Shown here: piece after piece, positions 7,501 to 52,818 of the stretch | How positions within the stretch are numbered: position 1 is the first letter of the stretch | How the letters are laid out: each line of letters begins with the position of its first letter | DNA from: a virus | Lineage: Duplodnaviria > Heunggongvirae > Uroviricota > Caudoviricetes | Length of the DNA: 64,000 nt | Virus record (IMG/VR): IMGVR_UViG_3300031413_000570 | Direction: 5' to 3' (one strand) | The notes under the pieces: generated by a model | Seen by the model: only the letters and a program-made list of their open reading frames with translations | Told to the model about the DNA's origin: nothing | The model's database searches: none | Position numbers and translations under genes: made by a program

Positions 7501-10500
7501 ATGTGTAATGCTATTCGTGATGGTGGGCAGCGTTGTCCAGTCCATCAGCACCACAACATTGCAGCTATCAAAGCAGCCTCCCATTTGAGTGGTTTGACCC
7601 GTCTGCAGACTGAGCGTTTATTCGCTGAGCTCCGCCGTGAAGGTCGTAACGCTGAACCTTTGACTAACCGCCTCCGTGCTGGTTCTTTACGTCGTATCCG
7701 TAACTCTGTTGCTGGAACTGATGTTGCTGAAGCTGTAGAATCCGAAATCGAACGATCACGTCAGCATGACACTGAGATTGACCCTGCAAGTGGTTATGCT
7801 CAGCGTGCTTTGTTGACTCGTTCCCGTGAACGTGCAGCTGCTTTGAATGCTCGTTTCGCTGAAGTTGCAACTCGTACTGGTTACACCCAGGAAGAAGTTG
7901 CAGCAAAGTACAAAGAATTCCGTAACGCTGTAGACACCAGTCGCGGTTCAGCTGTTCCTGCTGAATACGACCAGAACACTCGTCGTGCAGCAGTTCTTGC
8001 TAACCTTCCTTACGACCGTGCATCTGTTGTAGCTATCGAGAAGTTGAACACTCTTGCTCCAGCTGAAGAAGGTCGCCGTGTTGCTCTGCGTCCAGCCCCT
8101 GAAGGCTCACACATCAACTCCTACGGTTACGATGAAGGACGTATGGAAGTTGTCTTCAACAGCAACACTGACCGTATCTACGCTTACCAGAACGTTCCTG
8201 CTGAACTGTGGAACCGTTTCTCTGAAAGCGAATCACCTGGACGTATCTTCGCTCGTGAAATTCGCGGCGTAGGCGACTACCAGTACGCTTCTGAAGCAGC
8301 AGCTGAAGCTGACGCCCACCGTGTACGTTGTGGTTCCTGTGGACAGTTCCGTGCAGCTGCTCACTCCTGCCCTGAGCGTGAACAGCGTGAAGAGATTGCA
8401 ACTACTCTTATCACTGCTGGTCAAACACCAGCAGAAGTTGCAACATTCATCGCAGAGAACGTTGAAACACCTGAAGACATCCAGAACCAAGCTGCAGCGA
8501 CTGCCGCTTTCGAAGAATACCAGAACGACCTCGCTGCTGGGGTCTATGAAGCTTACGATGCAGAAGTTGAACCAGCTCCAACAGCTGAAGAAGTTGCTGC
8601 TGAAGCTGAAACACCTGTTGAGGATGCTCAGACCACTCCTGCTGCAGAAATTCCTGCCTACGACTTGAACGCTACGAACGGTTCGATTCTTACTGACCAG
8701 GACACTGGATACCTCAATCAGGTAGGTGTCGACAACGCTCCAGAAGCAACTGCTAACTACGTTTCAACAGTAGAAAACCAGCGTGAACCAGCAGCTTTGT
8801 CAACAGAAGCTATTTCTGTTGGGTCTGATGAGCTTCTTTCAAGAGTTCAAATTGCCAATAGCATGGACTCTTTGAACAACTACTACTACTGGAACCGCGA
8901 AGAGCTTGAAACCCATCTTGGTGCGGACACAATTGCTGAAATCGACAGCTCTCCAGAACACATTTACTACGTAGTTGGTGTACGTGAGGAAAGCGGAACT
9001 CCTGAAGTTCTTGCCAGCTACGACTCCCGTTACTACACTGGTAACTCCAACAACGCATGGGGAACTTCTGCTGCTAACTACCGTATGACTTACGGCTACA
9101 ACATCACTCGTAGAGGTTTCAAAGCTCCTGAGCAGACTTTTACTGAAGAAGAAAGAGATGCTTTAGTAGAAACTGAAACTACTCAACTTGCAGGTTTGGT
9201 TGAATCTGGTCAAGCTGTCCGAATTGAAGGTACAACTTCTGAAACTCGCAAGTATGTTGTAGACGGTAACAAAACTGACAACCGTTCAAAGCTTTATGTC
9301 CGTATGGGTAACGCTACTGCTTTCAAACGAGCTATTCGTGAGAACAAAGTAGTAATCATGCCTGTTTCCATGCGTCACCCTTACGGCGTCAACTCTGTTG
9401 ACGACCAGGGCTTCCATGTTGAAGCACGCAGCAACACTGAAGTTAAGGGTGAAATCGCTGTTCGTCGCAACAGTGAAGGTGTCATGGAAGTTATTAGCAC
9501 CGAACGTAAACTTCGTTGTAACTGCCGTGACTACCGCCTGAAGTACTACTGCCAGCATGTAAACTATGCTCAGCGTCACTTTGCTAACGTTGCACAGCAG
9601 ATGATTCCTGTTCCTCGTGCAGCTGTACCTGAAAGCGAACGTCCTCACCGCTTATTGACTCAGGCTCTGCATGACCGTGCAGACACCAGAGTTGTTGAGC
9701 CAGAGAACGAAGCTCCTTACATCAGTTTCGGTACAGAACTTTCTGGTGAAACTCGTTCAGGTAGCTATTGGCAGGCACGTAACTACGGTGAAATTCCAGC
9801 CGACTTACGTCCTGCAGACCCAGACAACATCACTCCTGATGAAGCAGCAAACTTGCAGGGCTTCAGCACCACTGTTGGAAACATCACCAACTTCTCTGTT
9901 CCTGTTGGTCCAGGTCAGTTGCGTACTGCTTTGCGTCGTGGTGATGTTGAAGTTCCTATTAGCATGAACTTCGGATGGCGTGGTTCCGTTGTTACCGGTT
10001 CACTTACCTTCAACCAGAACAGCTCTGCTGATTTGGAAGATTTGACTGTTCGTACCCGTAGCTTACGCTGTACTTGTGCTGCCTACCAGGAAAACTATGA
10101 CTGCGAACACGTACGTGCTGCTGCAGCTATGGGTCGTCCTCTTCTGGGTATTGGTTCTCGTACCATCACAAGCAACACTCCAAACTCAGTATACGTTGCT
10201 GAGAACCGTTACCGTAACGAAATGCGTGCACAGGCTGAAGTTGCTGGTTACATGGCTCGCGGTATGTCTCGTGAGGAAGCTCAGGCTGAAGTTGCAGCTG
10301 AACTTGCTCGTCGTCAGGCTGAGCAGGCTGAGTATGAAGAGCGTCGTGCCCGTGAGCGTGCTGAGTATGAAGAACGTCAGGCTGCTGCACGTAGAGCTGA
10401 AGTTGAACGCATGCGCTCAATGAACGCTGATGTTATCGCAGGTAACGAAACTTACCGTGCCAGCATGCTTGCACGTTGGGAAAATGTTGAAGAAACTTAT

Positions 10501-11544
10501 GCAGACAACCCTAAGCAGTTCTTCGATGACTACCAGGACACATTGCGTCGTAAGCGTGACGGTGAAGAAGTAATTCCTTTCCGTACAGAGAACGTTACTG
10601 ACGGTATCTGTGCTGATGAGCCTGGTGCTCGTGCGTTCGGTATTGAACTTGAGTTCGACATCAAACGTGGTGTGAACAAGTCTGAAGCTTTGCGTAAGAT
10701 TGGTCAGGAGCTTCACGCTGCTGGTCTTACCACCACTTCACAGCAGACTCGTTACCACTCTGCTCGTTCAAGCGGCTGGGCTAACTGGTCATTCGAGCAG
10801 GACTGTACTGTGGACGCTGAAATCGTTTCTCCTTTGATGAAGGACACTCCAGAACACTGGGAGCAGCTGAGAAAAGTTACAGAAATTGTTAACCGTAACG
10901 GTGGTATCGCTACCACACGTACAGGTTCTCACGTTCACGTGTCAACTGCTTCTTACGAAATGTCAAGTGCTAAGCATGCTGAGCTTCTTCGTACAGTGAA
11001 CAATAACGAAGACAACTTGTACCGTTTGGCTGCTAACCCTGCAACAGGTAAACACCGTGGAACACGTTGGTGTGCACCTAACGCAACTGACACAGCAAAC
11101 GACATTAGTGATGACGTGGCAGATGGACACCAGGTTCTTGGTTACAACCACAACAGCCATGGTGTTGGTTTGAACTTCGAAGGAACAGCAAGCACTACCT
11201 ACAAGAAGTCTAACATCGAGTTCCGTATGTGGGACGGTACAATGGACCCTGCTGTTATTCAGCAGCAGGTTGCCATCTCCGCCGCTATTACAGACTACGC
11301 TGAGCGTAAGGTTATTGTGGACAAGGTTTCTAAGAAGCCAGCTGCTGGCGACCGAGTAACTATTGGTACCAGCAAGCGTAAAGAAAAAGCTGTTCTTACT
11401 GCTGCTAACACAACAACTCACACAGAGGAAACTTTCAAAGAGTCCAGTGCCCAAGCTGCTGAGTTCTTTGACAAGTTGTTCCGTCGTAAAGAAGACCGTG
11501 CTGCTGCAGCGTCATTGTTCGCTGCAACTAACTGGCAGTCATAA
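7501..11544 (+). CDS. Giant multidomain protein: Cys leader, KTSC, Zn ribbon, two SWIM fingers, coiled coil, amidoligase (COOH-NH2 ligase type 2)
   Basis: MCNAIRDGGQRC; KTSC-like INSYGYDEGRMEVVF...YAYQNVP...SPGRIF (about 8100-8280); CGSCGQFRAAAHSC; CNC..CQH (9517-9558); CTC..CEH (10069-10110); FGIELEFD (10636), EIVSP, GSHVHVS, IEFRMWDGT. Confidence 0.85.
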   Translation: MCNAIRDGGQRCPVHQHHNIAAIKAASHLSGLTRLQTERLFAELRREGRNAEPLTNRLRAGSLRRIRNSVAGTDVAEAVESEIERSRQHDTEIDPASGYAQRALLTRSRERAAALNARFAEVATRTGYTQEEVAAKYKEFRNAVDTSRGSAVPAEYDQNTRRAAVLANLPYDRASVVAIEKLNTLAPAEEGRRVALRPAPEGSHINSYGYDEGRMEVVFNSNTDRIYAYQNVPAELWNRFSESESPGRIFAREIRGVGDYQYASEAAAEADAHRVRCGSCGQFRAAAHSCPEREQREEIATTLITAGQTPAEVATFIAENVETPEDIQNQAAATAAFEEYQNDLAAGVYEAYDAEVEPAPTAEEVAAEAETPVEDAQTTPAAEIPAYDLNATNGSILTDQDTGYLNQVGVDNAPEATANYVSTVENQREPAALSTEAISVGSDELLSRVQIANSMDSLNNYYYWNREELETHLGADTIAEIDSSPEHIYYVVGVREESGTPEVLASYDSRYYTGNSNNAWGTSAANYRMTYGYNITRRGFKAPEQTFTEEERDALVETETTQLAGLVESGQAVRIEGTTSETRKYVVDGNKTDNRSKLYVRMGNATAFKRAIRENKVVIMPVSMRHPYGVNSVDDQGFHVEARSNTEVKGEIAVRRNSEGVMEVISTERKLRCNCRDYRLKYYCQHVNYAQRHFANVAQQMIPVPRAAVPESERPHRLLTQALHDRADTRVVEPENEAPYISFGTELSGETRSGSYWQARNYGEIPADLRPADPDNITPDEAANLQGFSTTVGNITNFSVPVGPGQLRTALRRGDVEVPISMNFGWRGSVVTGSLTFNQNSSADLEDLTVRTRSLRCTCAAYQENYDCEHVRAAAAMGRPLLGIGSRTITSNTPNSVYVAENRYRNEMRAQAEVAGYMARGMSREEAQAEVAAELARRQAEQAEYEERRARERAEYEERQAAARRAEVERMRSMNADVIAGNETYRASMLARWENVEETYADNPKQFFDDYQDTLRRKRDGEEVIPFRTENVTDGICADEPGARAFGIELEFDIKRGVNKSEALRKIGQELHAAGLTTTSQQTRYHSARSSGWANWSFEQDCTVDAEIVSPLMKDTPEHWEQLRKVTEIVNRNGGIATTRTGSHVHVSTASYEMSSAKHAELLRTVNNNEDNLYRLAANPATGKHRGTRWCAPNATDTANDISDDVADGHQVLGYNHNSHGVGLNFEGTASTTYKKSNIEFRMWDGTMDPAVIQQQVAISAAITDYAERKVIVDKVSKKPAAGDRVTIGTSKRKEKAVLTAANTTTHTEETFKESSAQAAEFFDKLFRRKEDRAAAASLFAATNWQS

Positions 11545-11556
11545 TAATTGAATAGA

Positions 11557-11593
11557 AGAAATCCCCCTGGCAGGTTCTGTCAGGGGGATTTCT
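11557..11593. terminator. Bidirectional terminator
   Basis: agaaatccccctggcag / ctgtcagggggatttct between convergent genes. Confidence 0.85.
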
Positions 11594-15008: not shown

Positions 15009-15386
15009 ATGATCCCTTCAGACTACCGACGTAAAATCTTTGGTGACGCCCAAATCATCAATTACAACGTCGGGTTTGAGTTCATCATGTACACCTTAGA
15101 AGTCTCTAACGCAATGATGGAGACATATGATGCTTTAGAACCAATGGAGACATTCCAAGTTACCCATGTTGTTCCCTTAGAGAACGATTTGGATGATGTC
15201 ACTTCTTGGCTATCCACACCAACAGCAAAACTCATTGAGACTGCCTGGCGTGAAGAAGAAAAAGATTTGATGTTTGAAAAGCAAGAAGACACTCATATGG
15301 TGTTGTTGTCTTTGGGAGGATACGCAGTCCTCGTTCCTCTGCCAATGTATGGTTTTTTCGATCTTGTAGATAACACCGATAGCTAA
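15009..15386 (+). CDS. Hypothetical protein (likely leaderless)
   Basis: 125 aa; TATCAT (14997-15002) 6 nt before ATG. Confidence 0.65.
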   Translation: MIPSDYRRKIFGDAQIINYNVGFEFIMYTLEVSNAMMETYDALEPMETFQVTHVVPLENDLDDVTSWLSTPTAKLIETAWREEEKDLMFEKQEDTHMVLLSLGGYAVLVPLPMYGFFDLVDNTDS

Positions 15387-31199: not shown

Positions 31200-31204
31200 T
31201 ATAT

Positions 31205-33304: not shown

Positions 33305-33826
33305 AGGTTTTATCTTTGTCGTCCTATTAGTGGTGGTGGTTCTTAGTGTATATTCTGTCAAAATTTGCAGTCAGTTTTATTCATTCTAACTGTCTTTCAT
33401 TCTGACAAGTTTGTGTTATCGGCTGTACTTTTGGTGCCTTGTTCCTGATTGCCACGTCTACAAAGCCTTCCAATGTGCTTTATAGCCTGATGAATGCAGG
33501 AAAAAGAAGAAGTTTAAAAACTTCGGGAAAATGTTTTGCTCAAGGCTTGAATTGGATGGTTAGCATCCTTTGCCTTCTTCCTGCCGTACAGGGAAAATGG
33601 TCTCATAGAAAATGAGTTACTGCGATTTTTGTCAAGTTTTCGCGGTCGAACAAGGTCAGTCATTTTAGTCTCAGTCATTAGTAGTTAGTTTCGTGTCAAA
33701 TTAGTTATGTATAGTGCTTGTTGAAAAGCTTTTGTTATAAAATTATAGCAGCAAATCAGATATCGGCTGAATAAAACAATGTTTGAATAGTACACCTGAC
33801 CAGGTATTTTACTATTCTGAATGGTA

Positions 33827-34666
33827 TTATTTAGCCAATAGTGATGCTGGAATTTGGTTGTTAGGCCAACGGATAAATGAGCCAGCATCAAAGAGAAGTT
33901 CATGACCGTAATGGTTAAACCGGTCAAGCCATGGTTGATTAGTTTCCAGTTTTTTCTTAGTCAGGTAATCTTCTTGACCATGAACTACTGGAAGAGTTCC
34001 ATAGTTTTTCTCATACCCATTACGGTCGTAGAAATGCTCTAATCGAGCTCTGTGGTTAATAGCATGCTGGACGTACTCTTCATGATTTTCATCTGTATGC
34101 TCCAGTGTGCCATCCCCACTGTTCGTAGGTGTTCCCGAAACAACATAGCCTTTTTCATCCGCATGCTTCAGAAGTGTTTTACGGAAATACGAACCCAACC
34201 CGGCTCCTCGTAAGTCGGCATCTACTCGCATATCAGCAACGCTGACTCTGGTTATGTCTTTCTTAGGACCATAGCCATCATACTGACGCAGGCTGAAAGA
34301 CGCATAAGGTCTGTATGTGTCGTTTATGTGCTTCTCTAAGTCTTTTAAAGTTTCGAACGAAGGAACAGTTGTACGGTCTATAGAGTTGATGTATTCGAGA
34401 ACTTCTGGTCTATTTGCTTTGAAACGAAGAGTATCTGTCTGTTCTTCTCCGCTATGGTTGACGAATAAAGCAGCCATGCCGTTATCGATGAAAAGCATGT
34501 TCGGTTTCAAATCTTTGAGCTGGCGGGCTTCTATGTACGCCATGACATCTTGATCTTTCAAAGCATGCTCCATCGCATTTTGAATGGACAAACCCTCAGG
34601 GCAGCGAGGGTCACCACAGCCTCCGAAGGAATGCTTCTTAGATTGACATTTTTTGATTGTAACCAT
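33827..34666 (-). CDS. GNAT acetyltransferase with Cys-rich leader, paralog of 46077..46877
   Basis: KCQSKKHSFGGCGDPRCPE leader; VDADLRGAGLG motif A; FYDRNGY. Confidence 0.75.
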   Translation of the reverse strand: MVTIKKCQSKKHSFGGCGDPRCPEGLSIQNAMEHALKDQDVMAYIEARQLKDLKPNMLFIDNGMAALFVNHSGEEQTDTLRFKANRPEVLEYINSIDRTTVPSFETLKDLEKHINDTYRPYASFSLRQYDGYGPKKDITRVSVADMRVDADLRGAGLGSYFRKTLLKHADEKGYVVSGTPTNSGDGTLEHTDENHEEYVQHAINHRARLEHFYDRNGYEKNYGTLPVVHGQEDYLTKKKLETNQPWLDRFNHYGHELLFDAGSFIRWPNNQIPASLLAK

Positions 34667-34735
34667 GCTCAATATCTAACAACTCCGAAAACCTCATTTA
34701 TATGGGCTTTCCAAAAAAGTTGTTAGACTCCATCT

Positions 34736-37324: not shown

Positions 37325-40300
37325 TCAGTAGTAACCGTCGTCATCGTCATCGTCATCGTCATCATCGTAACTGTCATTATAGTTTTGCCAGTTGGTAACA
37401 GCAAACAATGAAGCAACTCTCTGACGGTCTTCCTGACGACGGAACAATCCATCGAAGAACTGAGGAGCTGAACCCATTGACTGCTCGAAAGTTTCACGTG
37501 TATGAGTACGGCTTGTGCCTAACAAAGTACGCTCTGCTGTACGAGCTGCACCAATACGTGAACGAGAAGCTGTCGGACGAGCTGATTCACCGTTGTTGAT
37601 TACGTTACGTTCAGCCTGGTCAGTCATTGCTGCTGAAACCATAATCTGTCGCTGAATAACAGCAGCATCCAGAGTAGCATCCCACATACGGAACTCAATG
37701 TTAGAACGGCTGTAATCAGATGAGTAGGTGCCTTCGAAGTTCATAGCATAGCTGTGAGACATATGGCTACCCAAAACGTTATGGCTACTTGACACATCAG
37801 CAGAAACGGTTTCACTTGTATCGTTTACGTTAGGTGCACACCAACGCATACCACGGTGGCTACCACGTGCAGGGTCTGTTGCCAAACGGTACATCATTTC
37901 GTCATTCTGGTTCACCTGACGTAACAGCTCAAGGTGCTTCGCAGGAGAAGACTCATAAGAGGCAGTGGAAATATGGACGTGAGAACCAGTACGAGTAGTA
38001 GCAACCCCACCGTTACGAGTAATAATCTCCAAAGCTGTCTTCAACTGGTTCCAGTGTTCAGGAGTGTCCTTCATGATTGGTGAGACTAACTCACCATGAA
38101 CAGTGCAGTCTTCTTCGAAGGACCAAGCACCCCAGCCGCTTGCACGAGCAGAGTGGTACTCCTGCTGGTAGTTCTCTTCAGTCAAACCAGCTTCGTAGAG
38201 TTCTTCAGCGATTTTACGTAATGATGTAGAACGGTTGTGACCACTTCCAATGTCGAACTCAAGTTCGATACCGAATGCACGAGCACCAGGCTCATCAGCA
38301 CAAATACCGTCAGTGACGTTCTCTGTACGGAAGTCCATGTACTCTTCACCAGCACGCTTGCGACGGAGAGTTTCACGATAGTCTTCGTACAAAGCGTCGA
38401 CGTTCCCAGTGTAACCAGGCTCTTCTTCTTCCCAGCGAGCCATCATACGAGTACGGTACTCATCGCTGGTAGCTACGACAGTAGCATTTCGTGTACGCAA
38501 AGTTTCAGCTTCACGCAGACCACGTTCCATGTTGATTCGTTCACGTTCAGCCTGAGAAGCACGGTAGTAACGTTCCTGCTCTTCACGCTGTCTCTGCTGC
38601 TCAGCACGCTCTTCTTCAGCTAACTCAATAGCTCTTGCACGGTCAACACCAGCGGTACGCATACGGTTACGAATACGCTCCTCATCCTGAACAGCAACAG
38701 AATGACGGTTGATGTAAGAAGTGTAATGCTCCCCTTCAACAAAACGACGGCTACGGTTGGTCAAGAACACATAAGGGTTACGGGCAGTTGCACGCACATG
38801 AACACAGTCGTAGTTTTCCTGATAATCAGCACAAGTACATTTCAGGTGGCGTTCACGAATAATAGCGTCTTCAAGAGTTTCGCCTTCAGCCAAACGGCCA
38901 ATCTGGATGGTTCCAGAGACAGTGCTTGATGGCAACATTCTGTTAGCAGTATCAGGTGAAGTCATTCGGTTGAATTCTGCAGAAACAGGCATTGAGAAGT
39001 CAGCACGGTGCAAATTGTCTCGGACTACGTTGATGTAATGCAAAGTTGTCACAGTTGACAAAGCATTGAACGCATCACGAGTTTCAATCATTACCTCAAG
39101 TTCTTCAGCCGTAGGATTATCCCTATCGAAGAAAGCACGGGTGAATGTAGAAGGTCTACGGTTCTGCATACTGCCAGTGTGAGCTCTGAATGTCTCATGC
39201 TCAGTAAACTCTTCACCTAAGTTCACAACATGGCGAGTAGTTCCGTCTGGAGCCTGAGAAGTTGATGCTGTACCAAATGGCAGTCTCTCCTGGAAGTCTG
39301 CACTCGCAACATACTCAGCAACTTCTTCTTCTGAAGCAGACGAAGCATAATCAACACGGGTTAAGTCTTCTACTACGAAAGCAGCTTCAGGAACCTCAGG
39401 AGACACTCCAGCGTCCAAAGCTTCTTGAATGTTCTCTGCAGGGGTCCCAAAAGCAGCTAAGTTGTTTCGAGCTGCTCTTTCTGGGCAGTTGTGTCGCTGA
39501 GCTCGGAATTGTCCACAAGAAGCGCAACGTAACACATATCCGTCTGCTTCAGCTGCTTCAGGACTATCATAGGTGTATTCAGAGTTTCCTCTGATGCTTC
39601 TGCTGTATACAGAACCTGGACGCTGAGCTGAACGCAATCGTTCATATAACGCCTCAGGTACGTTCTGGTAAGCGTAGAAGGTTTCTGGTTCATGCTGGAA
39701 AGAGACTTCCAAACGACCTTCATGGTAACCAACAAAAGCTAAATTGGTGCTGTTGATTGGTTCATGGTTCTCAATGCGAGCCTGACGGTTATCAGGAGAA
39801 ACAAGAGTGCGTACACGCTCTAACGCAACAACAGAGGAACGGTCGTAAGGAAGACCTGCTCTTCTTTGACGCTGAGTTGCTGCAGCAGTATGTTCTACCG
39901 GCATTTCTACGTTGTTACCAGTAGGAACAGCATCATACTCTTCATAGTATTTAGCTTGAACTTCTTCAAGAGTGTAACCTGTACGGTCGGCAACAGATTG
40001 TAGTTCAGCTTTGAGAGCTTCGGCTTTTCTTTTAGAAATTTCAACCAAATGCGTTAGAGCATAGGATGTAGCCTGGTCAGGTTCTTCGTTCCAACGGTCA
40101 GCAATTCTCATCTGACGTTCATACGCGGTCAGATCGTTAGCTTCTTCAGCAACAACCCGGAGGTTGTCAATTGCCTGCTGGCGAGCTGCTGGAGAGATTT
40201 CTGTAATATCCGCTCCTTCTCTGCGAAGTTCACGGAAAGTATTCTCTACCTGACGACGCTGCAGACCAGTGGCGGCTACGACTGCACGAATACCAGCGAT

Positions 40301-40357
40301 GCTGGTGTGCTGATGGATTGGGCAACGGCGTCCACCGTCACGAACTGCATTACACAT
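37325..40357 (-). CDS. Second giant protein: Cys leader, KTSC, Zn ribbon, SWIM, coiled coil, amidoligase; poly-Asp tail
   Basis: MCNAVRDGGRRC; VGYHEGRLEVSF..YAYQNVP; CASCGQFRAQRHNC; CTCADYQENYDCVH; FGIELEFD, ELVSP, GSHVHIS, IEFRMWDAT; ends YDDDDDDDDDGYY. Confidence 0.85.
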   Translation of the reverse strand: MCNAVRDGGRRCPIHQHTSIAGIRAVVAATGLQRRQVENTFRELRREGADITEISPAARQQAIDNLRVVAEEANDLTAYERQMRIADRWNEEPDQATSYALTHLVEISKRKAEALKAELQSVADRTGYTLEEVQAKYYEEYDAVPTGNNVEMPVEHTAAATQRQRRAGLPYDRSSVVALERVRTLVSPDNRQARIENHEPINSTNLAFVGYHEGRLEVSFQHEPETFYAYQNVPEALYERLRSAQRPGSVYSRSIRGNSEYTYDSPEAAEADGYVLRCASCGQFRAQRHNCPERAARNNLAAFGTPAENIQEALDAGVSPEVPEAAFVVEDLTRVDYASSASEEEVAEYVASADFQERLPFGTASTSQAPDGTTRHVVNLGEEFTEHETFRAHTGSMQNRRPSTFTRAFFDRDNPTAEELEVMIETRDAFNALSTVTTLHYINVVRDNLHRADFSMPVSAEFNRMTSPDTANRMLPSSTVSGTIQIGRLAEGETLEDAIIRERHLKCTCADYQENYDCVHVRATARNPYVFLTNRSRRFVEGEHYTSYINRHSVAVQDEERIRNRMRTAGVDRARAIELAEEERAEQQRQREEQERYYRASQAERERINMERGLREAETLRTRNATVVATSDEYRTRMMARWEEEEPGYTGNVDALYEDYRETLRRKRAGEEYMDFRTENVTDGICADEPGARAFGIELEFDIGSGHNRSTSLRKIAEELYEAGLTEENYQQEYHSARASGWGAWSFEEDCTVHGELVSPIMKDTPEHWNQLKTALEIITRNGGVATTRTGSHVHISTASYESSPAKHLELLRQVNQNDEMMYRLATDPARGSHRGMRWCAPNVNDTSETVSADVSSSHNVLGSHMSHSYAMNFEGTYSSDYSRSNIEFRMWDATLDAAVIQRQIMVSAAMTDQAERNVINNGESARPTASRSRIGAARTAERTLLGTSRTHTRETFEQSMGSAPQFFDGLFRRQEDRQRVASLFAVTNWQNYNDSYDDDDDDDDDDGYY

Positions 40358-40427
40358 ATTTTCCCTTGCTCATTTTCTTCTTTATAGCTATCGGGGACAA
40401 ACCCTACTTTGTCCTTTGCCAGATGGT

Positions 40428-41027
40428 TCAGTTAACTACATTCTGAGCAGTTCCGAAAGCAATGTAACCAATACGAGATAATGAACGGAGAAAGTCAAGC
40501 TCGTATTCAGGGCGTAACCAAATTAGGTTCTTAACCTCTTCATAGTCTCCTTCTTTGGAGATTGGTCGAGGAATTTCAGTATGTGGTGCATATGATGTGG
40601 TTACAAGTACAAGAGGAAGGTCAGAGAACCAGAAATCAATAACTTCATCATTCTTGATTGTTCCTAATGTTCCTTCTCCCAAACCCCAGCCATAAGTATC
40701 TCCAGCACTTGTAAGAACTTCCCATTCCCAGTCTTTCAGCTTCTCTGCTGTTTCTGGAGTAATGCGAGATGCAATCATGGTGCGTGCTTTGAGCTGCACT
40801 GTCTGAGCTAAATTGATTCGAGCTTGTAGTTTGTCCTCAGCAGATAGAGCAGCGTATCCAGTGATGAGGACTCCCAAAGCATCTTCTGTTGTTTCGCAGT
40901 CAGCAACTAAACGGTTTGAATCATAGAACATACGCCACTCAAATTGGGACCCATCCATTTTTACAGCAGGCGAGGGAGCTCTATTATCTCTGGCAGCTAA
41001 TTGGTTTGGTGTAATTACAACAGTCAT
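40428..41027 (-). CDS. Conserved hypothetical protein (RDNRAP family), paralog of 6184..6816
   Basis: Same conserved blocks as 6184..6816; directly upstream of the second amidoligase. Confidence 0.85.
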   Translation of the reverse strand: MTVVITPNQLAARDNRAPSPAVKMDGSQFEWRMFYDSNRLVADCETTEDALGVLITGYAALSAEDKLQARINLAQTVQLKARTMIASRITPETAEKLKDWEWEVLTSAGDTYGWGLGEGTLGTIKNDEVIDFWFSDLPLVLVTTSYAPHTEIPRPISKEGDYEEVKNLIWLRPEYELDFLRSLSRIGYIAFGTAQNVVN

Positions 41028-44926: not shown

Positions 44927-45930
44927 GGATTAGCTATCGGTTTAATTGAAGTTGGTTTGTATCTCAAGGACATCATCACATGCTGAGTGTGAGCGTTAGG
45001 TAAATCAGCTGCTGACAGCTTTTTGACTGTCAACATGATGTGTTCAGGTCTATCTGCAGTGTTGCTACTTTTACGACCCAAGAACCATGTGTCAGAAAGA
45101 TATCTTTCTGACAACGCCATTTTGTCATAATGCGTCCGGGTTAGCGTGACTGTAAGCTTATCCAAGTCATAGCTGACCACTCCAGTTAGAGAAGAAACAA
45201 AAGCTGCCAGAATTTGAGACACTTCCACTTTGTCTTTCAGCGGGACATTACTGGAACCTGACTTTTTTAGCCTCACCTTTTGAATAGTCAAAGAAACATC
45301 TCTTAGAAAATGTAAGTCAAACAAGCTAAACAATGTCACTTTTTCCCGGTAAGGTACAGCAACAAAAGCGATTTTCTGATTGACAAATTTCTTAGCCAAC
45401 CAAGCCCTGGTGACAAAATTCTCTACTTCAGGTGTTACTACTAAACGAGATTGAGAAATTTGACTGATGTAGTCTTCCAGTAAGCTACCTGTCCGAGGTT
45501 TGCCTTCTGGTGTTAGAATGATTTGACCTAACTGAGCCTGGTAGGATTTCACCTCAACAGCAAAGAAAGGCTCTGTTTCTCCTTTGACGGAAACTTCGAT
45601 ATCATTCTTCTGAGAGTTAGACCCTCCATGATGCTCTACAGTAAGAACATCTGCGGGTAAAATTTTAGTTGCGGCTGAATAAGCTCGCAGTTCGTTGATT
45701 TCATGGTTAACCCCAGCAGCGGTAGCAGGCACCCCATGGTTACTCGAATAACGAGTGGCAGTCCAATTTTTCTTTGTAATGTCTGACAGTTTTGATACTA
45801 CAGAAGAATAGAAACTGTCATAAGCTGACAAGATTTGAGTAATCTCAGTCTGAAGGTCTTCTGGAAGAGCTGCCATTTCAGGCAGAGATGCTAAACCAGC
45901 ATCTCTGTTAACATCAGCAACCTTTTCCAT
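44923..45930 (-). CDS. Putative type II restriction endonuclease (PD-(D/E)XK)
   Basis: Stop overlaps the methylase start; KNDIEV...AVEVKS motif; TACAAT 6 nt before ATG. Confidence 0.5.
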   Translation of the reverse strand: MEKVADVNRDAGLASLPEMAALPEDLQTEITQILSAYDSFYSSVVSKLSDITKKNWTATRYSSNHGVPATAAGVNHEINELRAYSAATKILPADVLTVEHHGGSNSQKNDIEVSVKGETEPFFAVEVKSYQAQLGQIILTPEGKPRTGSLLEDYISQISQSRLVVTPEVENFVTRAWLAKKFVNQKIAFVAVPYREKVTLFSLFDLHFLRDVSLTIQKVRLKKSGSSNVPLKDKVEVSQILAAFVSSLTGVVSYDLDKLTVTLTRTHYDKMALSERYLSDTWFLGRKSSNTADRPEHIMLTVKKLSAADLPNAHTQHVMMSLRYKPTSIKPIANP

Positions 45931-46076: not shown

Positions 46077-46877
46077 CTACTTCTGGAAGCCTTCGGGCCA
46101 CTGGCCTTGAGGTAGTCTGACGAGCTGAGGAGTTTGAGGTGAACCTAAATAGGTTTTACCCTGACTGGTGAATTTACTCATCTCTTGTTCGTTCAACTGC
46201 CAAGGCTGTTGAGTCAGTTCGTCCTTCCATCCAATTGGAATCCAGAACGGGTTCTGTCGAAAACCATTCTTCTGGTAGAAACGAGTGAGCCTTTCCCTAT
46301 GAGCCAAAGCTTTAGCTTCATACTGCGGGTGGCGGGTATCTATCTTCTTATCCCCGGCAGAAGTCGGGGTGAGAAAAAGCATGCTGTTGTTAGCGTCTGC
46401 ATGCTTGGTAAGAATGTCCATAATCCATCCACCAACACCTTGACCTCGTAAGCCAGGTGATACATAGAACTCTTTTACTGTGTGGCCAGCAACAGGGCTA
46501 TTATGTAGAGTCGCACCCAGTAGCAGAACAACATTAGGGTCTTGTGTGAAAAACTTCTGGATGTCTGAGTAGGATGAGAAAGATGGGACTGTTTTCAGGT
46601 CGTACTGATGAGATATTTTTTCAGGAGCTATCCCTACAGTTAGTTGTTCATTGGTAGTGTCATCTGACAAGACCAGTTGATCCCATTCTTCTGCGTTCGA
46701 CGCAGGGTAAACACCAATTGGTTTGAAACGATCCATCTCTTCTTTTACCGCGAACATCGTCTGATAGTCTTCGTCTAACAGCGCCTTATCGAAAACTTCT
46801 TTTAGATGGTTCCTCTCAGGACAACGCGGGTCGCGGCATTGCCCTGGAGTGCGAGCTTGGCAGCGGACGTTCTTCAT
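46077..46877 (-). CDS. GNAT acetyltransferase with Cys-rich leader, paralog of 33827..34666
   Basis: RCQARTPGQCRDPRCPE leader; VSPGLRGQGVG; FYQKNGF. Confidence 0.75.
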   Translation of the reverse strand: MKNVRCQARTPGQCRDPRCPERNHLKEVFDKALLDEDYQTMFAVKEEMDRFKPIGVYPASNAEEWDQLVLSDDTTNEQLTVGIAPEKISHQYDLKTVPSFSSYSDIQKFFTQDPNVVLLLGATLHNSPVAGHTVKEFYVSPGLRGQGVGGWIMDILTKHADANNSMLFLTPTSAGDKKIDTRHPQYEAKALAHRERLTRFYQKNGFRQNPFWIPIGWKDELTQQPWQLNEQEMSKFTSQGKTYLGSPQTPQLVRLPQGQWPEGFQK

Positions 46878-46901
46878 AGAGTGTTCCTAACCGTAAAGGA
46901 A

Positions 46902-48126: not shown

Positions 48127-48135
48127 GTGAAAGAG

Positions 48136-48465: not shown

Positions 48466-48514
48466 ATAACGAAGAAGGACGCCTCCATCAGTAAGAGGTG
48501 TCCTTCTTCGTTAT
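48466..48514 (-). terminator. Terminator after the tRNA nucleotidyltransferase
   Basis: ataacgaagaaggacgcctc / gaggtgtccttcttcgttat. Confidence 0.8.
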
Positions 48515-48515
48515 A

Positions 48516-49955
48516 TTATGCCAAGTTATTCTTAATCCAGGCCAAACCAGATTCACGGGTGCGGAAGCCATCCGCATATTGAGCTGCTCGGGCTTCGTCC
48601 AAAGAAATTCTCATCCAAGGACCTGGACGACGGTCAGGGAACAACGCCATCAAGTCTTCACCTTTGACCAAATCAGGTTCAGGTCCATCAAGAAGACCTA
48701 AAGTGTGGGCTGTGTTCTGAATACGTTCTGCTTTTTCAGTCTCACCACGAGATTTAGCCAGGTAAACCCAATCCTGAATGGTGTTGTGACGGGTCAAAGA
48801 CTTAGCCCAGTGTCTCATCGTCGCTTTCTCTTCGTCCTCAGGAAGCTTCAGACGAGAAAGGTTGTAAGCACCGTTCTTAGCATCATCCCCGATAGTTGTG
48901 TAGCTGAGGAAACTCTTAGCATCATTATCATTCAAATGTGAAGCAATGTTTGCTGACAAAACGTAAGCATACTTACTCTTAGGAATTGTTCCATCGTCAG
49001 CTAACGCCTGAGTCCTTTGCAAATTCTGACCCAATTTTCCATCATTGGCTTCAGCTAATCCACTGAAGTTAGCATCCCAGCCAGTAGACTTCAGCAGTTG
49101 GAAAGCTTTGTGAGGAGCTTTACCTTTTGAGTAGAGTTTCTCAAACTCAGTTTGAACACGCTCTTTAGCTAAATCCTGGAACTGTGGCTGTAAAGTCTGG
49201 GCTTTCACAACAGTGTCAGGGTGAAGCTCCATGTCGAAACGAGAAGCCATCTGAACTCCACGAAGAACACGCAAAGGGTCTTCATCAAAAGCATCAGAGA
49301 TGTGACGCAGTTGCTTTTTGTCTAAGTCTTCAAGACCTTCATGCTTGTCGATGATGTACCCAAGCTGATTATCATACATCAAAGCGTTGATGGTGAAATC
49401 ACGACGAGCTGTTGCTTCATACATTGAAAGCTCTGGAAGCAGTTCAGTGGTGAAGCCTCGATGACCGTCACCCACTTTAGAATCTTTACGAGGAAGGGAC
49501 ACATCAAAGTCTTCTCCCCCGATTTGGATTTTAAGCACACCGAAAGATTTGCCTACTTCATCAACTTGCCCAATTTTACGCAAAGAGGCAACAACTTCTT
49601 CAGGGGTAGCTTTGTACACTTCGATGTCAACATCTTTGGAGTCAAGTCCCAACAACGCATCACGAACGCTTCCACCTACAACGTAAGGTTCATAACCGTC
49701 TTCACGTAACTGGTTCAAGACACGCTGTGCATTCTCGGTGAGTTCCATGGAATAGGCACGGATTTTACCGCCATCAGCAGTCAGATGAGCTTTCTTCTCT
49801 CGAAGTTTCTCCATCTCATCGGTGATACTGGCAACACGATCAGTATTACCTTGCTTAGCATGGTACTGCTTCTGGGCTTGCAAATTCCTTACGTGAATGC
49901 CGAACGCGTTATCTGAGTTGCAACGGCGTCCACCGTCTTCTAATTTTCTACACAT
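48516..49955 (-). CDS. cca: Class II tRNA nucleotidyltransferase (CCA-adding-like) with Cys-rich leader
   Basis: MCRKLEDGGRRC leader; VGGSVRD, DVDIE, RRDFTINA, EDPLRVLRG, ERVQTEFEK. Confidence 0.85.
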   Translation of the reverse strand: MCRKLEDGGRRCNSDNAFGIHVRNLQAQKQYHAKQGNTDRVASITDEMEKLREKKAHLTADGGKIRAYSMELTENAQRVLNQLREDGYEPYVVGGSVRDALLGLDSKDVDIEVYKATPEEVVASLRKIGQVDEVGKSFGVLKIQIGGEDFDVSLPRKDSKVGDGHRGFTTELLPELSMYEATARRDFTINALMYDNQLGYIIDKHEGLEDLDKKQLRHISDAFDEDPLRVLRGVQMASRFDMELHPDTVVKAQTLQPQFQDLAKERVQTEFEKLYSKGKAPHKAFQLLKSTGWDANFSGLAEANDGKLGQNLQRTQALADDGTIPKSKYAYVLSANIASHLNDNDAKSFLSYTTIGDDAKNGAYNLSRLKLPEDEEKATMRHWAKSLTRHNTIQDWVYLAKSRGETEKAERIQNTAHTLGLLDGPEPDLVKGEDLMALFPDRRPGPWMRISLDEARAAQYADGFRTRESGLAWIKNNLA

Positions 49956-50046
49956 CTGATTATCCTTACTCTATGTCCCTTATACCTATCGGTTAAATGA
50001 GTGTGGCCACCTGGAACATGTCAGATGGCCACACTCATGCTGCTTT

Positions 50047-50388
50047 TTACTCGTTTAGAGCAGTTCCTGTGATGGGAGTAAACAGCTCAGCAGGAAGACC
50101 AGTGAAGTCCCCATCAAGAATGCGGGCATCTTTAGCAATGGCCTGGACTCCGTTGTTGGAAACAACCAAAAAGTCACCAATTGCAACGATGACTCGTGTC
50201 TCATAACCTCCACGCTGGTCACCATCAACAACAACAAACCCCTGCTTCTTCAGCTTACCCCTAATGACATCTTTAGGGTCCACTCCGGCAAAAGCGTGGA
50301 GGTTATTAGCAATCTCCTTCAGGTCCTCCTGCTTTACAGTGCTTACCGTGATAACAGGAAGAACTGGACGGAACTGGAACTTAGGCAT
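50047..50388 (-). CDS. Hypothetical protein
   Basis: 113 aa ORF co-oriented with neighbours. Confidence 0.6.
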   Translation of the reverse strand: MPKFQFRPVLPVITVSTVKQEDLKEIANNLHAFAGVDPKDVIRGKLKKQGFVVVDGDQRGGYETRVIVAIGDFLVVSNNGVQAIAKDARILDGDFTGLPAELFTPITGTALNE

Positions 50389-50465
50389 AATGTTTTTCTT
50401 TCGTCAAATGGATAGAAACCAAACTTGAATACAGCTCACACTATACTCTTGTATCAATGTTTGTG

Positions 50466-51113
50466 TCAAGCTAATTTGTTAAACATTTGTTCATCATCAA
50501 TGAACCGGTTCTTCAGTTTATCCAGCCATGCCAGGTTCTTGATTTTGAAAGAAGTTAAACGATTACGGTTATCGTAGCCACCTTTACAAACTACTCCTTC
50601 GAAAGTCATACCTTCCAGCGAACCTGTTTTCACTGCAGAAATGAACTCTTGGGAAGGTTTACCTTCAAACAACAGTTCAGGAGTATCGACATGCTTGAAT
50701 ATTTTGTTGAAATCTTTTGGAGGTAACATGCCTTGCTTATACACATGAACATCAAAAAGTGTTACATCATGAGGTTCGTCTTCGTGATATCCAGCGAAGC
50801 TGTGTTCTCCGTAGAATTCAAAGAAAGCTGTTGCTTTCTGATACTTCTGTTTACGGAAAATTTCATCCAGAACTTCGGTATATTTTTCTTGAATCAAAGG
50901 GATTGCTTCTCCCAGTAACGGGTTAGACGTGTCAATTAGTTGACGACGCGAACCGAACTTTGAGAACCCTGTCTTACGATTCCATTCAGCACGTATGTTA
51001 GAGCCATCTAACTTGTCGTATGCATAAATGTGGGTATTGCGAATAATCTTATCAATAGATGGGTATTGTTCCACCAGGTTACTTACTTTCTTAAATAGAA
51101 TGGTTGCCTGCAC
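50466..51113 (-). CDS. ATP-dependent RNA ligase-like nucleotidyltransferase
   Basis: Motif I DKLDGSN, III FEFYG, IIIa LFDVH, IV EGVVCK, V FKIKN; no OB domain. Confidence 0.75.
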   Translation of the reverse strand: MQATILFKKVSNLVEQYPSIDKIIRNTHIYAYDKLDGSNIRAEWNRKTGFSKFGSRRQLIDTSNPLLGEAIPLIQEKYTEVLDEIFRKQKYQKATAFFEFYGEHSFAGYHEDEPHDVTLFDVHVYKQGMLPPKDFNKIFKHVDTPELLFEGKPSQEFISAVKTGSLEGMTFEGVVCKGGYDNRNRLTSFKIKNLAWLDKLKNRFIDDEQMFNKLA

Positions 51114-51218
51114 TCAGGTGGAGTTAACTCGACACCTGATGAGGTTTATGTCATTAGAAGTAAGATTAGTAGTTCAGCATGGTTTTATTATAGCATGCTT
51201 TACTGCTGGATGCCAACT

Positions 51219-51620
51219 TTATTTGAAAACGCCGAAACAGGTAGTTTCCCCAACAGCTACCTGACGTGTCTGCAAGGTAGCTGAGCTGTTAGCAAACATT
51301 TTACCGGTGGTGGATTTTGAAGCTGACGCGTAAGTTAGTCCGTCAGCAGAGATGGTGCTACAGGTTTTATCGTTCACGGCTAACAATTTCTTATCAACCA
51401 GTTGAGCTTGAGTGCCATAGACATCATAAGCTTGCTTGTATGAGTTTTGTGCCGTGGACAGAGAAGTCAAAGCTTGTCTTGCTGAGTTGTTCTGAGCCCA
51501 AGGAATGATACCTAACACAGTCACAGATGTAATCCCAGCAAGAACACCTACTACAATAATTCCCACGATGATGGAAGGAAGGTCAACTGCACCTTTTGAA
51601 GATTTGAAAAGGTTCATCAT
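51219..51620 (-). CDS. Type IV pilin-like protein (class III signal peptide-like N-terminus)
   Basis: KSSKG-AVDLPSIIVGIIVVGVLAGI..IIPWAQ. Confidence 0.55.
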   Translation of the reverse strand: MMNLFKSSKGAVDLPSIIVGIIVVGVLAGITSVTVLGIIPWAQNNSARQALTSLSTAQNSYKQAYDVYGTQAQLVDKKLLAVNDKTCSTISADGLTYASASKSTTGKMFANSSATLQTRQVAVGETTCFGVFK

Positions 51621-51688
51621 ATGGTTCCTGATAAAAAGGTCATGTGTCTTACACATTATCGGGCGTTAGAAGGAAATAGGGTGTTTCC

Positions 51689-51916
51689 CTAATCGTGCTC
51701 AGCTACACCGTGTTCTTCGTCAATTTCACGATGGACATCTCGTTTGACACGAGGGATGATTATCTTCTTGATAATGAACCCCCATATGACTGAGACAATC
51801 AAAATGTCAAAAACAACTGAGAATGCAAGTTCAAATAGAAGGTGAGCTGGGTCTGTTGCTATTTCAACGAACTCTTCAAGGACACTTCCTCCAGCTGAAT
51901 GAAGGAAGAACATCAA
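51689..51916 (-). CDS. Small membrane protein
   Basis: One long hydrophobic helix; start overlaps the upstream stop. Confidence 0.55.
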   Translation of the reverse strand: MMFFLHSAGGSVLEEFVEIATDPAHLLFELAFSVVFDILIVSVIWGFIIKKIIIPRVKRDVHREIDEEHGVAEHD

Positions 51917-52818
51917 GCTGCTTTCTCAGGAGAGTAACGGCGTTGAATATCGAGAAGCTTTGCTTTACCGTCAGTTAACTGGTTCAGAATGTTTTTGTAA
52001 CCAATCTCTGAAATTGGCAAGTCATTGTTGACGTAACCTTGTTTCACTCTGTGTGTAAGCTCATCAATGACTCCAAGATACTTGGTTGATTTTTTGTACA
52101 ATGACACTGCGGACATTCCTGCTTCAGTGTGGTGAAGTGACAAAGCATTGTCAGTGAAGTCACTGATTTTACCAACAGCTACACGAGGATTTTTGATAGC
52201 TTCGATTACATGGTCACGGTACACTGCATTTTTCTGAGCTGCCGGCATGTAACGGTCTTCGCTGATAGGGTTTGACATACCTTCAACCATTCGGGCTGCA
52301 TTTTTACCAAAGTTCTTTTCGATGTAACGGTAAGAAATCTCACGAGCGTGTTCTTCGTCACGTGGTTCTTCTTTGGCGTATTCACGAGCAATCTCAAAAG
52401 GGTGGTCTTCCACAGTGTCGTGAAGTAATGAGCCAATCAGAGTTGCTTCATCATCGCACCCGTATCGAATGATTCTTAGAGTGTTACGCAGAGGGTGTTC
52501 GATGTAAGGAGTGCGCTCATGGTAGGCACGGTTAGCTCTTGTGTCTGTCTTATGTAAATCAGCTGCGAGAAGTAAAGCCTTCTTTACTCTGGCTGCGTTG
52601 ATGCTGGGAGTCTTGTTAGCGTAAGCCATGACAACTGAAGCGATCTGGGTGCTGTCATAAGTCTTCAAAGCAGTAGTGAAAATCGCTTTATTTGAATGCT
52701 GGAGAGGGTACTTCACGTATTCACGAATTTCACGGTGAGCATCAAAACCCAAACCTGTACCATGTTTCCAGCAGGTTTTTGGGTTCTTAGCTCGGCATCT
52801 GTCTGTTGTAGTAGTCAT
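51913..52818 (-). CDS. RelA/SpoT-type HD hydrolase (small alarmone hydrolase/Mesh1-like) with Cys-rich leader
   Basis: RCRAKNPKTCWKHG leader; TPYIEHP, LLHDTVED, GKISDFTDN. Confidence 0.7.
   Translation of the reverse strand: MTTTTDRCRAKNPKTCWKHGTGLGFDAHREIREYVKYPLQHSNKAIFTTALKTYDSTQIASVVMAYANKTPSINAARVKKALLLAADLHKTDTRANRAYHERTPYIEHPLRNTLRIIRYGCDDEATLIGSLLHDTVEDHPFEIAREYAKEEPRDEEHAREISYRYIEKNFGKNAARMVEGMSNPISEDRYMPAAQKNAVYRDHVIEAIKNPRVAVGKISDFTDNALSLHHTEAGMSAVSLYKKSTKYLGVIDELTHRVKQGYVNNDLPISEIGYKNILNQLTDGKAKLLDIQRRYSPEKAA

What the first reader, a model, noticed from the sequence alone, without database searches (positions are those of the whole stretch)
7501..52818. Shared Cys-rich N-terminal leaders on six enzymes from four unrelated families: candidate sorting or packaging tag
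Class 1 is MC-x5-GG[RQ]RC: 7501 MCNAIRDGGQRC and 40357 MCNAVRDGGRRC (amidoligases), and 49955 MCRKLEDGGRRC (tRNA nucleotidyltransferase). Class 2 is looser: 46877 RCQARTPGQCRDPRCPE and 34666 KCQSKKHSFGGCGDPRCPE (GNATs), and 52818 RCRAKNPKTCWKHG (alarmone hydrolase-like). Typical cellular CCA enzymes, GNATs and Mesh1-like hydrolases lack these extensions, so they look like modular add-ons. All cargoes modify or repair macromolecules. Hypothesis: a Zn-binding address that loads host-takeover or counter-defence enzymes into the virion or another compartment for early delivery.
Basis: partly seen in the sequence, partly recalled or inferred. Interest (0 to 1): 0.88.

Follow-up and report, generated by a model that had tools for sequence, protein, structure and literature searches.

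The report
Portable N-terminal cysteine knuckle on enzymes
Six enzymes of this giant actinobacterial mobile genome start with a short, strongly conserved cysteine/histidine loop that ordinary relatives of two of them lack. It looks like a portable, probably zinc-binding handle, but what it binds is still unknown.

Summary
Six ORFs have 2-3 Cys in their first 25 residues, in a proteome with 0.66% Cys (about 1.2 such proteins expected, P about 2e-4). The six reduce to four independent cargo families: an amidoligase pair, a GNAT pair, a CCA-type nucleotidyltransferase and a small alarmone hydrolase.

The leaders are translated and under strong protein-level selection. Orthologues at 40-70% identity keep the Cys/His positions while their codons vary synonymously. 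In the GNAT family, 6 of 11 invariant columns lie in the leader.

Phage CCA enzymes, and cellular, plasmid and ordinary-phage relatives of the hydrolase, lack the leader. The hydrolase family also carries other Cys-hook variants, so the module is swappable. No hookless relative of the GNATs or amidoligases was found.

New here:
- An MC-hook plus helical-bundle module heads a GNAT-like protein on 37 Rhodococcus plasmids and one Kineococcus plasmid.
- That same cargo sits behind the portal-adjacent minor capsid protein of Microbacterium phages. The hook module therefore occupies the position of a known virion-anchoring domain.
- Its presence on plasmids argues against a purely virion-specific tag.

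Zn binding, packaging and any receptor remain unproven. No Pfam, NCBIfam or PDB family matches. This scan noted the same kind of hook before, in this genome and in at least four others.

The parts
7501..11544 (+). Amidoligase-1 (1347 aa: KTSC, two SWIM-like fingers, Amidoligase_2). The hook is residues 1-18 (7501-7554): C2, C12, H15, H17.
37325..40357 (-). Amidoligase-2 (1010 aa), paralogue of amidoligase-1. The hook is residues 1-17 (40307-40357).
48516..49955 (-). CCA/poly(A)-type nucleotidyltransferase (479 aa). The leader is residues 1 to about 68 (49752-49955), with the hook at residues 1-19 (C2, C12, D/H15).
46077..46877 (-). GNAT-A (266 aa, Acetyltransf_7). The hook is residues 5-24 (46806-46865): C6, C14, C19, H24.
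33827..34666 (-). GNAT-B (279 aa from ATG 34666, not the TTG at 34672). The hook is residues 7-24 (34595-34648): C7, H12, C17, C22, then P-E-G.
51913..52818 (-). HD-domain small alarmone hydrolase-like protein (301 aa). The hook is residues 7-20 (52759-52800), of the form C-x7-C-x2-H-G. The leader runs to about residue 48-65.
7458..7475 (+). CCGATAG followed by TATAAG, 43 nt upstream of the amidoligase-1 start. Promoter-like, and a general motif of this element.
40377..40394 (-). CCGATAG followed by TATAAA, 37 nt upstream of the amidoligase-2 start.
49975..49992 (-). CCGATAG followed by TATAAG, 37 nt upstream of the CCA enzyme start.
52827..52832 (-). GTTAGA exactly 14 nt upstream of the HD gene's ATG. 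The same motif and spacing occur at 46886-46891 (GNAT-A) and 34675-34680 (GNAT-B), and also before genes without a hook.

Best explanation
Shown: the six genes begin with a translated, strongly conserved 12-20-residue loop holding two or three Cys and usually one His (occasionally Asp).

Inferred from the ligand pattern: this loop most likely folds around one metal ion, probably Zn.

Shown: the loop heads portable N-terminal modules (hook plus one to three helices). Giant (0.5-1.0 Mb) actinobacterial mobile genomes, and some actinobacterial plasmids, place these modules in front of unrelated accessory enzymes.

Inferred, my preferred mechanism: the module is not part of catalysis. It is a shared docking handle, in the way the N-terminal trafficking domains of polymorphic toxins work. 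It would tie diverse effector enzymes to one partner that belongs to the element's DNA-transfer or particle machinery, so that the enzymes travel with the DNA or act at its entry. The partner is unknown.
For: The leader is translated and under protein-level selection.
- Synonymous changes occur at conserved hook codons across orthologues.
- Hook residues are invariant in 13 amidoligases, 3 CCA enzymes and about 20 GNATs.
- They are 99-100% conserved in 79 hydrolases.
- 6 of the 11 invariant columns of the GNAT family lie in the hook.

The leader is an add-on.
- Phage CCA homologues start at residue 65-72.
- Hookless hydrolase homologues occur in Microbacteriaceae, in 375-600 kb Micrococcales plasmids and in phage A3Wally.
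- Solved alarmone hydrolases align from model residue 66-72, with Z about 17.

The leader is swappable. The hydrolase family carries at least four N-terminal hook variants, including an MC-x7-C-x2-H form like class 1.

My own census adds an ADP-ribosyltransferase and four unknown proteins with hooks. One 532-kb contig has five hook genes within 10 kb.

No core residue co-varies with the presence of the hook, so the hook does not complete a site in the enzyme core.

AF2 gives the hook lower confidence than the core: pLDDT 65-83 against 95 in the hydrolase, and 50-55 against above 90 in GNAT-B.

A domain swap points to trafficking. The MC-hook plus bundle module heads a GNAT-like protein on 37 Rhodococcus plasmids and one Kineococcus plasmid. 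That cargo, including its linker, is 45% identical (E 4e-49) to the C-terminal part of gp4 of Microbacterium phage Barnstormer. Gp4 is the minor capsid protein encoded between the portal and scaffold genes. MuF-type proteins at that genome position bind the portal, and in polymorphic toxins the N-terminal domain sets the transport route (PMC5576092; PMC12226406 abstract).
Against: - No metal binding, packaging, transfer or partner has been shown.
- Whether this element makes virions was not tested. The window has no structural genes.
- The hook genes are scattered among replication and repair genes, each with its own promoter-like signal.
- No hook module was found in isolated phage genomes.
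- The link between the window's short leaders and the plasmid MC-hook plus bundle domain is weak. hhalign aligns only the hook and first helix (E 0.003, probability 10%). BLAST finds only the 12-residue hook between the CCA enzyme and the amidoligase, and nothing between the class 2 members. The hooks could therefore be convergent.
- The hydrolase model has pTM 0.92, which suggests that much of its leader packs on the enzyme.
- Gp4 of Barnstormer matches Pfam VG15, not the MuF models.
Confidence: 0.4

Rival explanations
1. Nucleic-acid or ribosome-targeting knuckle. The basic Cys/His loop is a small zinc knuckle that brings the enzymes to RNA, DNA or the ribosome, where their substrates are.
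For: - The hooks are mostly basic, for example KKC.SKKH, RC.AK..K.C.KH and MCKPKPGPRC.
- Several cargoes act on or near RNA or nucleotides: the CCA enzyme, the alarmone hydrolase, an amidoligase with a KTSC domain, and acetyltransferases with weak fold matches to tRNA- or N-terminal-acetylating enzymes.
Against: - No match to any known nucleic-acid-binding finger in Pfam, NCBIfam or the PDB.
- The CCA hook is not net basic.
- Hookless homologues of the same enzymes exist in related phages, so substrate access does not need the hook.
- This reading does not explain the swap with a capsid protein.
Confidence: 0.2
2. Intramolecular cap or switch. The hook is a metal-stabilised N-terminal cap of each enzyme. 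It would give stability, act as a redox or metal switch, or act as a degron read by the Clp system, with no common external partner.
For: - The hydrolase model places residues 21-50 at pLDDT 94-95 with pTM 0.92, which fits a leader docked on the enzyme.
- All known GNAT-A/B and amidoligase relatives carry the hook, so it may be integral there.
- The element encodes its own ClpP1, ClpP2 and a ClpC-like ATPase.
Against: - The same hook type sits on unrelated folds, and different hook types sit on one fold, which is unexpected for a fold-specific cap.
- No core position co-varies with the hook.
- The hook itself has the lowest confidence in both models.
- No evidence links the hook to Clp.
Confidence: 0.2
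3. Unrelated or chance motifs. The six leaders are independent, convergent Cys-rich N-termini with no shared meaning.
For: - Pairwise similarity between cargo families is limited to 12 residues or is absent.
- A 40-column hook profile had no power in the exhaustive search.
- With four independent families the window statistic alone is only P = 0.018.
Against: - Conservation within each family is very strong.
- Enrichment at N-termini is 11.5-fold.
- Hook variants are exchanged on one cargo family.
- Hook genes cluster, with five in 10 kb of a related genome.
- A joint alignment shows a coherent common core.
Confidence: 0.05

Closest known systems
N-terminal trafficking domains of polymorphic toxins, especially MuF-type minor capsid domains of phage MuF toxins (PMC5576092, PMC12226406)
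   Same: A constant N-terminal module is followed by a linker and a variable C-terminal enzyme. In my data the hook plus bundle module and a portal-adjacent minor capsid protein carry the same GNAT-like cargo.
   Different: There is no sequence relation to MuF or VG15 models. The hook genes are not next to a portal gene. The module is only about 20-70 residues and rich in Cys/His. It also occurs on plasmids.
Capsid targeting sequence of phage T4 internal proteins and Alt (PMC3012670)
   Same: A short N-terminal element is shared by otherwise diverse, scattered counter-defence proteins.
   Different: The T4 sequence is defined functionally, by encapsidation into the scaffolding core. Nothing of that kind is shown here. 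The hooks are Cys/His-rich, strongly conserved, probably folded, and also found on plasmids.
Polyvalent proteins of phages and conjugative elements (PMC5512222)
   Same: Effector-type enzyme domains (GNAT, ADP-ribosyltransferase, amidoligase-like with SWIM) are carried by mobile elements and are thought to travel with the DNA.
   Different: Most hook proteins have a single cargo domain. A term search of that paper for 'cysteine' and 'Zn-ribbon' found nothing.
Short zinc knuckles appended to enzymes (for example the SEC-C motif of SecA, or SWIM)
   Same: About 20 residues, three or four Cys/His ligands, basic, and terminal on larger proteins.
   Different: The ligand spacing differs: C-x7-10-C-x2-H here, against C-x-C-x8-C-H for SEC-C (the latter recalled from general knowledge). 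No Pfam match at E up to 10.

Membership tests
T4-type capsid targeting sequence | Short N-terminal peptide shared by diverse internal or counter-defence proteins | tested here: met
   Six proteins from four families share N-terminal hooks.
T4-type capsid targeting sequence | Directs the protein into the prohead scaffolding core (PMC3012670) | not testable with these tools
   No virion data. Structural genes were not seen in the window.
MuF polymorphic toxins | N-terminal MuF domain (Pfam PF04233, PF06152 or relatives) | tested here: not met
   Pfam scans of whole proteins and of leaders found no MuF or VG15 match.
MuF polymorphic toxins | Gene immediately downstream of the portal gene | tested here: not met
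   Neighbours of the six genes are replication, methylase, repair or unknown genes.
MuF polymorphic toxins | Constant N-terminal module with a variable C-terminal enzyme | tested here: met
   Hooks occur on amidoligase, CCA enzyme, GNAT, alarmone hydrolase, ADP-ribosyltransferase and unknown cargoes.
Known zinc-finger or zinc-knuckle families (Pfam, NCBIfam, PDB sequences) | Significant profile match of the hook region | tested here: not met
   No family matched at E up to 10, apart from one weak DUF7900 hit (E 0.0045) that is absent in orthologues.
Known zinc-finger or zinc-knuckle families (Pfam, NCBIfam, PDB sequences) | Three or four conserved Cys/His ligands within about 20 residues | tested here: met
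   Conserved ligands: C2/C12/H15/H17 in the amidoligases, C/H/C/C in GNAT-B, and C8/C16/H19 in the hydrolase. Metal binding itself was not tested.
Small alarmone hydrolase (Mesh1/RelH), for the cargo at 51913-52818 | HD-domain fold superposable on solved small alarmone hydrolases | tested here: met
   AF2 model at pLDDT 95. VIA-align gives Z 17, rmsd 2.4 over 174 residues to 3nr1, 5vxa and 7qoc. Activity was not tested.

The most novel reading that the evidence does not exclude
The Cys/His hook is a general trafficking signal of actinobacterial mobile DNA. A conserved receptor in the DNA-transfer machinery (the head of giant phage-like elements, or the conjugative apparatus of plasmids) would read it and co-deliver dozens of different effector enzymes into the next host. 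This would be a protein-delivery code not yet described.
Probability: 0.25. Interest if true: 0.85.

Novelty: new variant of a known kind. Interest (0 to 1): 0.6.

Why it matters
If the hook is a common handle, it marks the effector repertoire of a whole group of 0.5-1 Mb actinobacterial mobile genomes. In the accessible DNA, roughly one gene in ten to one in four carries it locally. It would also give a simple sequence criterion for finding such effectors.

It points to a tractable test system. The MC-hook plus bundle protein occurs on plasmids of cultured Rhodococcus strains, including R. jostii RHA1 pRHL3. Its cargo homologue is fused to a capsid protein in isolated Microbacterium phages.

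If instead it is only a structural zinc cap, it is a lineage-specific curiosity.

Tried and rejected
- **Exhaustive profile search.** A 40-column hook profile (A4) against 1.84 billion representatives gave 9 hits. They were the query's own families plus repeat junk. The profile is too short for that database.
- **Word-based searches.** A search with the CCA leader found only itself. A search with the mixed leader alignment found only orthologues of the same cargoes.
- **DUF7900.** The weak hit on the CCA leader is not reproduced in orthologues and is treated as chance.
- **Family and structure libraries.** The protein atlas, a PDB sequence search and NCBIfam gave nothing.
- **DNA pattern scans of IMG/VR.** For the MC hook there were 4 chance hits. 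For the hydrolase hook there were none.
- **Related loci.** The species genome collection gave no relatives of the amidoligase. Whole-record searches of the giant metagenome contigs are not possible, because the records are not held. A true genome-wide census could therefore not be done.
- **tblastn against 50,697 phage genomes.** No match for any of the three hook modules tried.
- **Profile comparison.** hhalign of the CCA leader against the MC-hook plus bundle domain aligned only the hook and first helix (probability 10%).
- **'Dedicated start-site signal' idea, rejected.** CCGATAG and GTTAGR motifs precede hook genes but also many genes without hooks.
- **Clp degron idea.** Considered because ClpP1, ClpP2 and a ClpC-like gene are in the window. 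No evidence was found.
- **Complex prediction.** Not used, because I had no specific partner to test.
Full report
**1. What is there**

Pfam and fold data identify the cargoes.
- Two amidoligase proteins carry KTSC, SWIM-like and Amidoligase_2 domains.
- One protein is a PolyA_pol/CCA-type nucleotidyltransferase.
- GNAT-A matches Acetyltransf_7.
- GNAT-B has no Pfam hit, but it is 28% identical to GNAT-A and has weak GNAT fold matches.
- The HD protein's AF2 model (pLDDT 95) superposes on the small alarmone hydrolases Mesh1 and RelH, with Z about 17.

The amidoligases are paralogues, and so are the GNATs. There are therefore four independent cargo families, not six.

**2. Is it more than chance?**

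The window's proteins contain only 0.66% Cys. Given each protein's own Cys content, 1.2 proteins should have two or more Cys in residues 2-26. Six real proteins do (P = 2e-4). Counting four independent families gives P = 0.018.

Over the window plus seven related loci (192 ORFs), a hook regex is 11.5 times denser in the first 30 residues than elsewhere. The internal hits are essentially the SWIM fingers of the amidoligases. No whole genome is held, and the giant contigs cannot be searched as records.

**3. Are the leaders translated and conserved?**

The ORFs open at these start codons. Related 0.79-0.88 Mb metagenome contigs carry orthologues at 44-57% identity with the hooks intact. The protein searches added more orthologues.
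- 13 amidoligases have MC-x-[A/H/S]-x-[R/Q]-DGG-x-RCP-x-H-x-H.
- 3 CCA enzymes have MCR...[E/D]GGRRC-x2-[D/H]-NAFG.
- About 20 GNAT-B proteins have KC-[Q/R]-SKKH...GGCGDP-[R/K]-CPEG.
- 79 of 120 members of the hydrolase family have [R/K]-C-x-AK-x-P-x2-C-[W/P]-x-HG, with C8, C16 and H19 at 99-100%.

In the GNAT alignment, 6 of the 11 invariant columns of the whole protein lie in the hook. Conserved hook residues use different synonymous codons in different orthologues, so selection acts on the peptide and not on an RNA element.

GNAT-B most likely starts at ATG 34666, as in its orthologues, and not at the TTG at 34672.

**4. Add-on or integral?**

For two cargoes the leader is clearly an addition.
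- **CCA enzyme.** Ten phage CCA homologues from IMG/VR align only from residue 52-74 (most from 64-74) and have no Cys leader. The CCA enzyme of Microbacterium phage A3Wally starts directly with the catalytic head.
- **Hydrolase.** Homologues in Frondihabitans, Rathayibacter and Glaciihabitans, in 375-600 kb plasmids of Arthrobacter, Pseudarthrobacter, Paenarthrobacter and Curtobacterium, and in 190-kb Microbacterium phages start near residue 48 without a hook. Solved alarmone hydrolases align from model residue 66-72.

For the GNATs and the amidoligases I found no hookless relatives, so 'add-on' is unproven there.

Hook-bearing hydrolases sit on very large contigs when well assembled (0.6-1.0 Mb). 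One 695-kb contig carries both a hooked and a hookless paralogue.

**5. One family of modules?**

Pairwise similarity between cargo families is short. The CCA enzyme and the amidoligase share only the 12-residue hook. The hydrolase and GNAT leaders give no BLAST alignment. A joint alignment of 32 leaders is nevertheless coherent: basic-C-x-[A/S], a G/P-rich loop, [R/K]-C-[P/W]-x-H, then a helix.

More telling, the hydrolase family itself carries at least four different N-terminal hook variants.
- The window's C-x7-C-x2-HG type.
- A YH-x-N...C-x-A-x4-CP-x2-HG...EEA type.
- A G-x2-CY-x-GP-x-C-x2-HG type.
- An MC-x7-C-x2-H type followed by a helical bundle (P0128), which resembles the window's class 1.

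Different hooks are therefore interchangeable on one enzyme. I read the two 'classes' as members of one loose superfamily. Homology beyond the hook is not demonstrated: hhalign gives E 0.003 and probability 10%.

**6. Cargo census of my own**

A 532-kb contig, which also encodes an rIIB-like protein and ribonucleotide reductase, has five hook genes within 10 kb. They are an ADP-ribosyltransferase, the hydrolase and three unknowns. A 695-kb contig adds another unknown. Hooks are thus common and sit on many folds.

**7. Structure**

AF2 models the hydrolase very confidently (pTM 0.92). The hook (residues 8-19) scores only 65-83, while residues 21-50 score 94-95. In GNAT-B the hook scores 50-55 against above 90 for the core.

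No core position co-varies with the presence of the hook, so the hook does not complete a site in the enzyme.

The ligand sets are what one expects of a small zinc site, but that is inference.
- Amidoligases: C, C, H, H.
- GNAT-B: C, H, C, C.
- GNAT-A: C, C, C, H.
- Hydrolase: C, C, H.
- CCA enzyme: C, C, D/H.

**8. New context: plasmids and a capsid-protein swap**

The MC-hook plus bundle module (P0128 residues 1-110) matches 37 Rhodococcus plasmids and a Kineococcus plasmid, starting at residue 1. The four plasmid records I inspected (RHA1 pRHL3, pNSL1, pKRAD01 and an R. ruber megaplasmid) are all annotated as linear.

The plasmid gene encodes MCKPKPGPRCTPH..., a helical region ending in YDATPGG, a low-complexity linker and a C-terminal domain whose sequence resembles GNAT enzymes (no Pfam match). 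In the plasmids inspected it lies directly behind, or overlaps, a gene annotated as N-formylglutamate amidohydrolase. Its start is mis-called or the ORF is unannotated.

The linker plus C-terminal domain is 45% identical (E 4e-49) to the C-terminal part of gp4 of Microbacterium phage Barnstormer. UtzChips and Caron have the same gene. Gp4 is the 'minor capsid protein' encoded between portal and scaffold, and its N-terminal part matches Pfam VG15.

The same cargo is therefore headed by a head-module protein in small phages and by the hook module on plasmids. MuF-type proteins at that position bind the portal. In polymorphic toxins the N-terminal domain sets the route of transport (PMC5576092; PMC12226406 abstract).

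This is my main argument that the hook module is a trafficking or docking domain. It also shows that the module is not tied to virions.

**9. Mechanism and odds**

I am about 90% confident that the leaders are real, translated, portable Cys/His modules. I am about 70% confident that they bind a metal.

For function I favour a shared docking handle for co-transfer with the element's DNA (0.4). The rivals are:
- a nucleic-acid or ribosome-targeting knuckle (0.2);
- an intramolecular cap, switch or degron (0.2);
- convergent or chance motifs (0.05).

None of these is tested directly.

**10. Known or new?**

No Pfam, NCBIfam or PDB sequence family matches. A term search of the polyvalent-protein paper for 'cysteine' and 'Zn-ribbon' found nothing. 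The logic of a constant N-terminal module with variable enzymes is that of polymorphic toxins and of the T4 capsid targeting sequence, so I file it as a new variant of a known kind.

Earlier notes of this scan report the same type of hook in this genome and in at least four others. My results agree with their core claim. They add the plasmid/capsid-protein swap and do not support a hook-specific start-site signal.

Noticed in passing
window 52827-52832, 46886-46891, 34675-34680, 57340-57345, 5991-5996 (all -); 34722-34727, 15376-15382, 62956-62962 (+); 44934-44940, 59005-59011 (-): GTTAGR or CCGATAG lies 14-16 nt upstream of many ATG starts. CCGATA also lies 30-61 nt upstream of others. In all, 17 of 22 CCGATA sites are within 80 nt upstream of a same-strand start. 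This looks like a general promoter or leaderless start signal of this element, not one specific to hook genes.
   Followed up: partly
window 6145-6816 (+), 40428-41027 (-), 6873-7388 (-): Each amidoligase has a neighbouring paralogous gene of 199-223 aa with no Pfam match; the two share a DNRAP-x-PAV motif. Amidoligase-1 also has a divergently transcribed gamma-glutamyl cyclotransferase (GGACT, E 8e-17). This suggests a small amidoligase-centred modification module.
   Followed up: partly
window 8329-8382 (+) and 39478-39528 (-), residues 277-294 of the amidoligases: Both amidoligases have an internal Cys/His motif, C-x2-C-GQFR-x5-H-x-CPER, directly after the KTSC domain. It shares the CPER ending with the GNAT-A hook.
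   Followed up: no
window 1703-2946 (+), 60321-62816 (-), 28761-33361 (-), 25004-26824 (-): The element encodes its own probable ClpP1/ClpP2 pair (read from the sequence, no family scan), a ClpC-like double-AAA ATPase, GyrA and GyrB, and a full DnaG primase. These are host-like core genes on a mobile genome.
   Followed up: partly
window 48516-57331 (-): An RNA-repair set lies on one strand: the CCA enzyme, an RNA ligase (50466-51113, Pfam RNA_ligase), the alarmone hydrolase and a P-loop kinase-like protein (56312-57331). Microbacterium phage A3Wally has hookless versions of the hydrolase and the CCA enzyme side by side.
   Followed up: partly
L034 9001-10125 (Rhodococcus pNSL1) and L033 9001-10140 (R. 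jostii RHA1 pRHL3): The plasmid hook genes are mis-annotated. In pNSL1 the annotated start is 13 codons downstream of the MC start, and in pRHL3 the 379-aa ORF is not annotated at all. In an R. ruber plasmid (L036) the ORF runs on in frame from the upstream gene annotated as N-formylglutamate amidohydrolase.
   Followed up: partly
L008-L011, upstream of position 10001: Some IMG/VR phage CCA enzymes carry a different N-terminal extension, with a Y-Y-H-P-E-G-K-H-x-G-P-R-G-G-R-F motif. Some hydrolase homologues carry a K-N-G-K-x-V-x-R-H-V type extension. Enzymes of this kind seem to collect various N-terminal modules.
   Followed up: no
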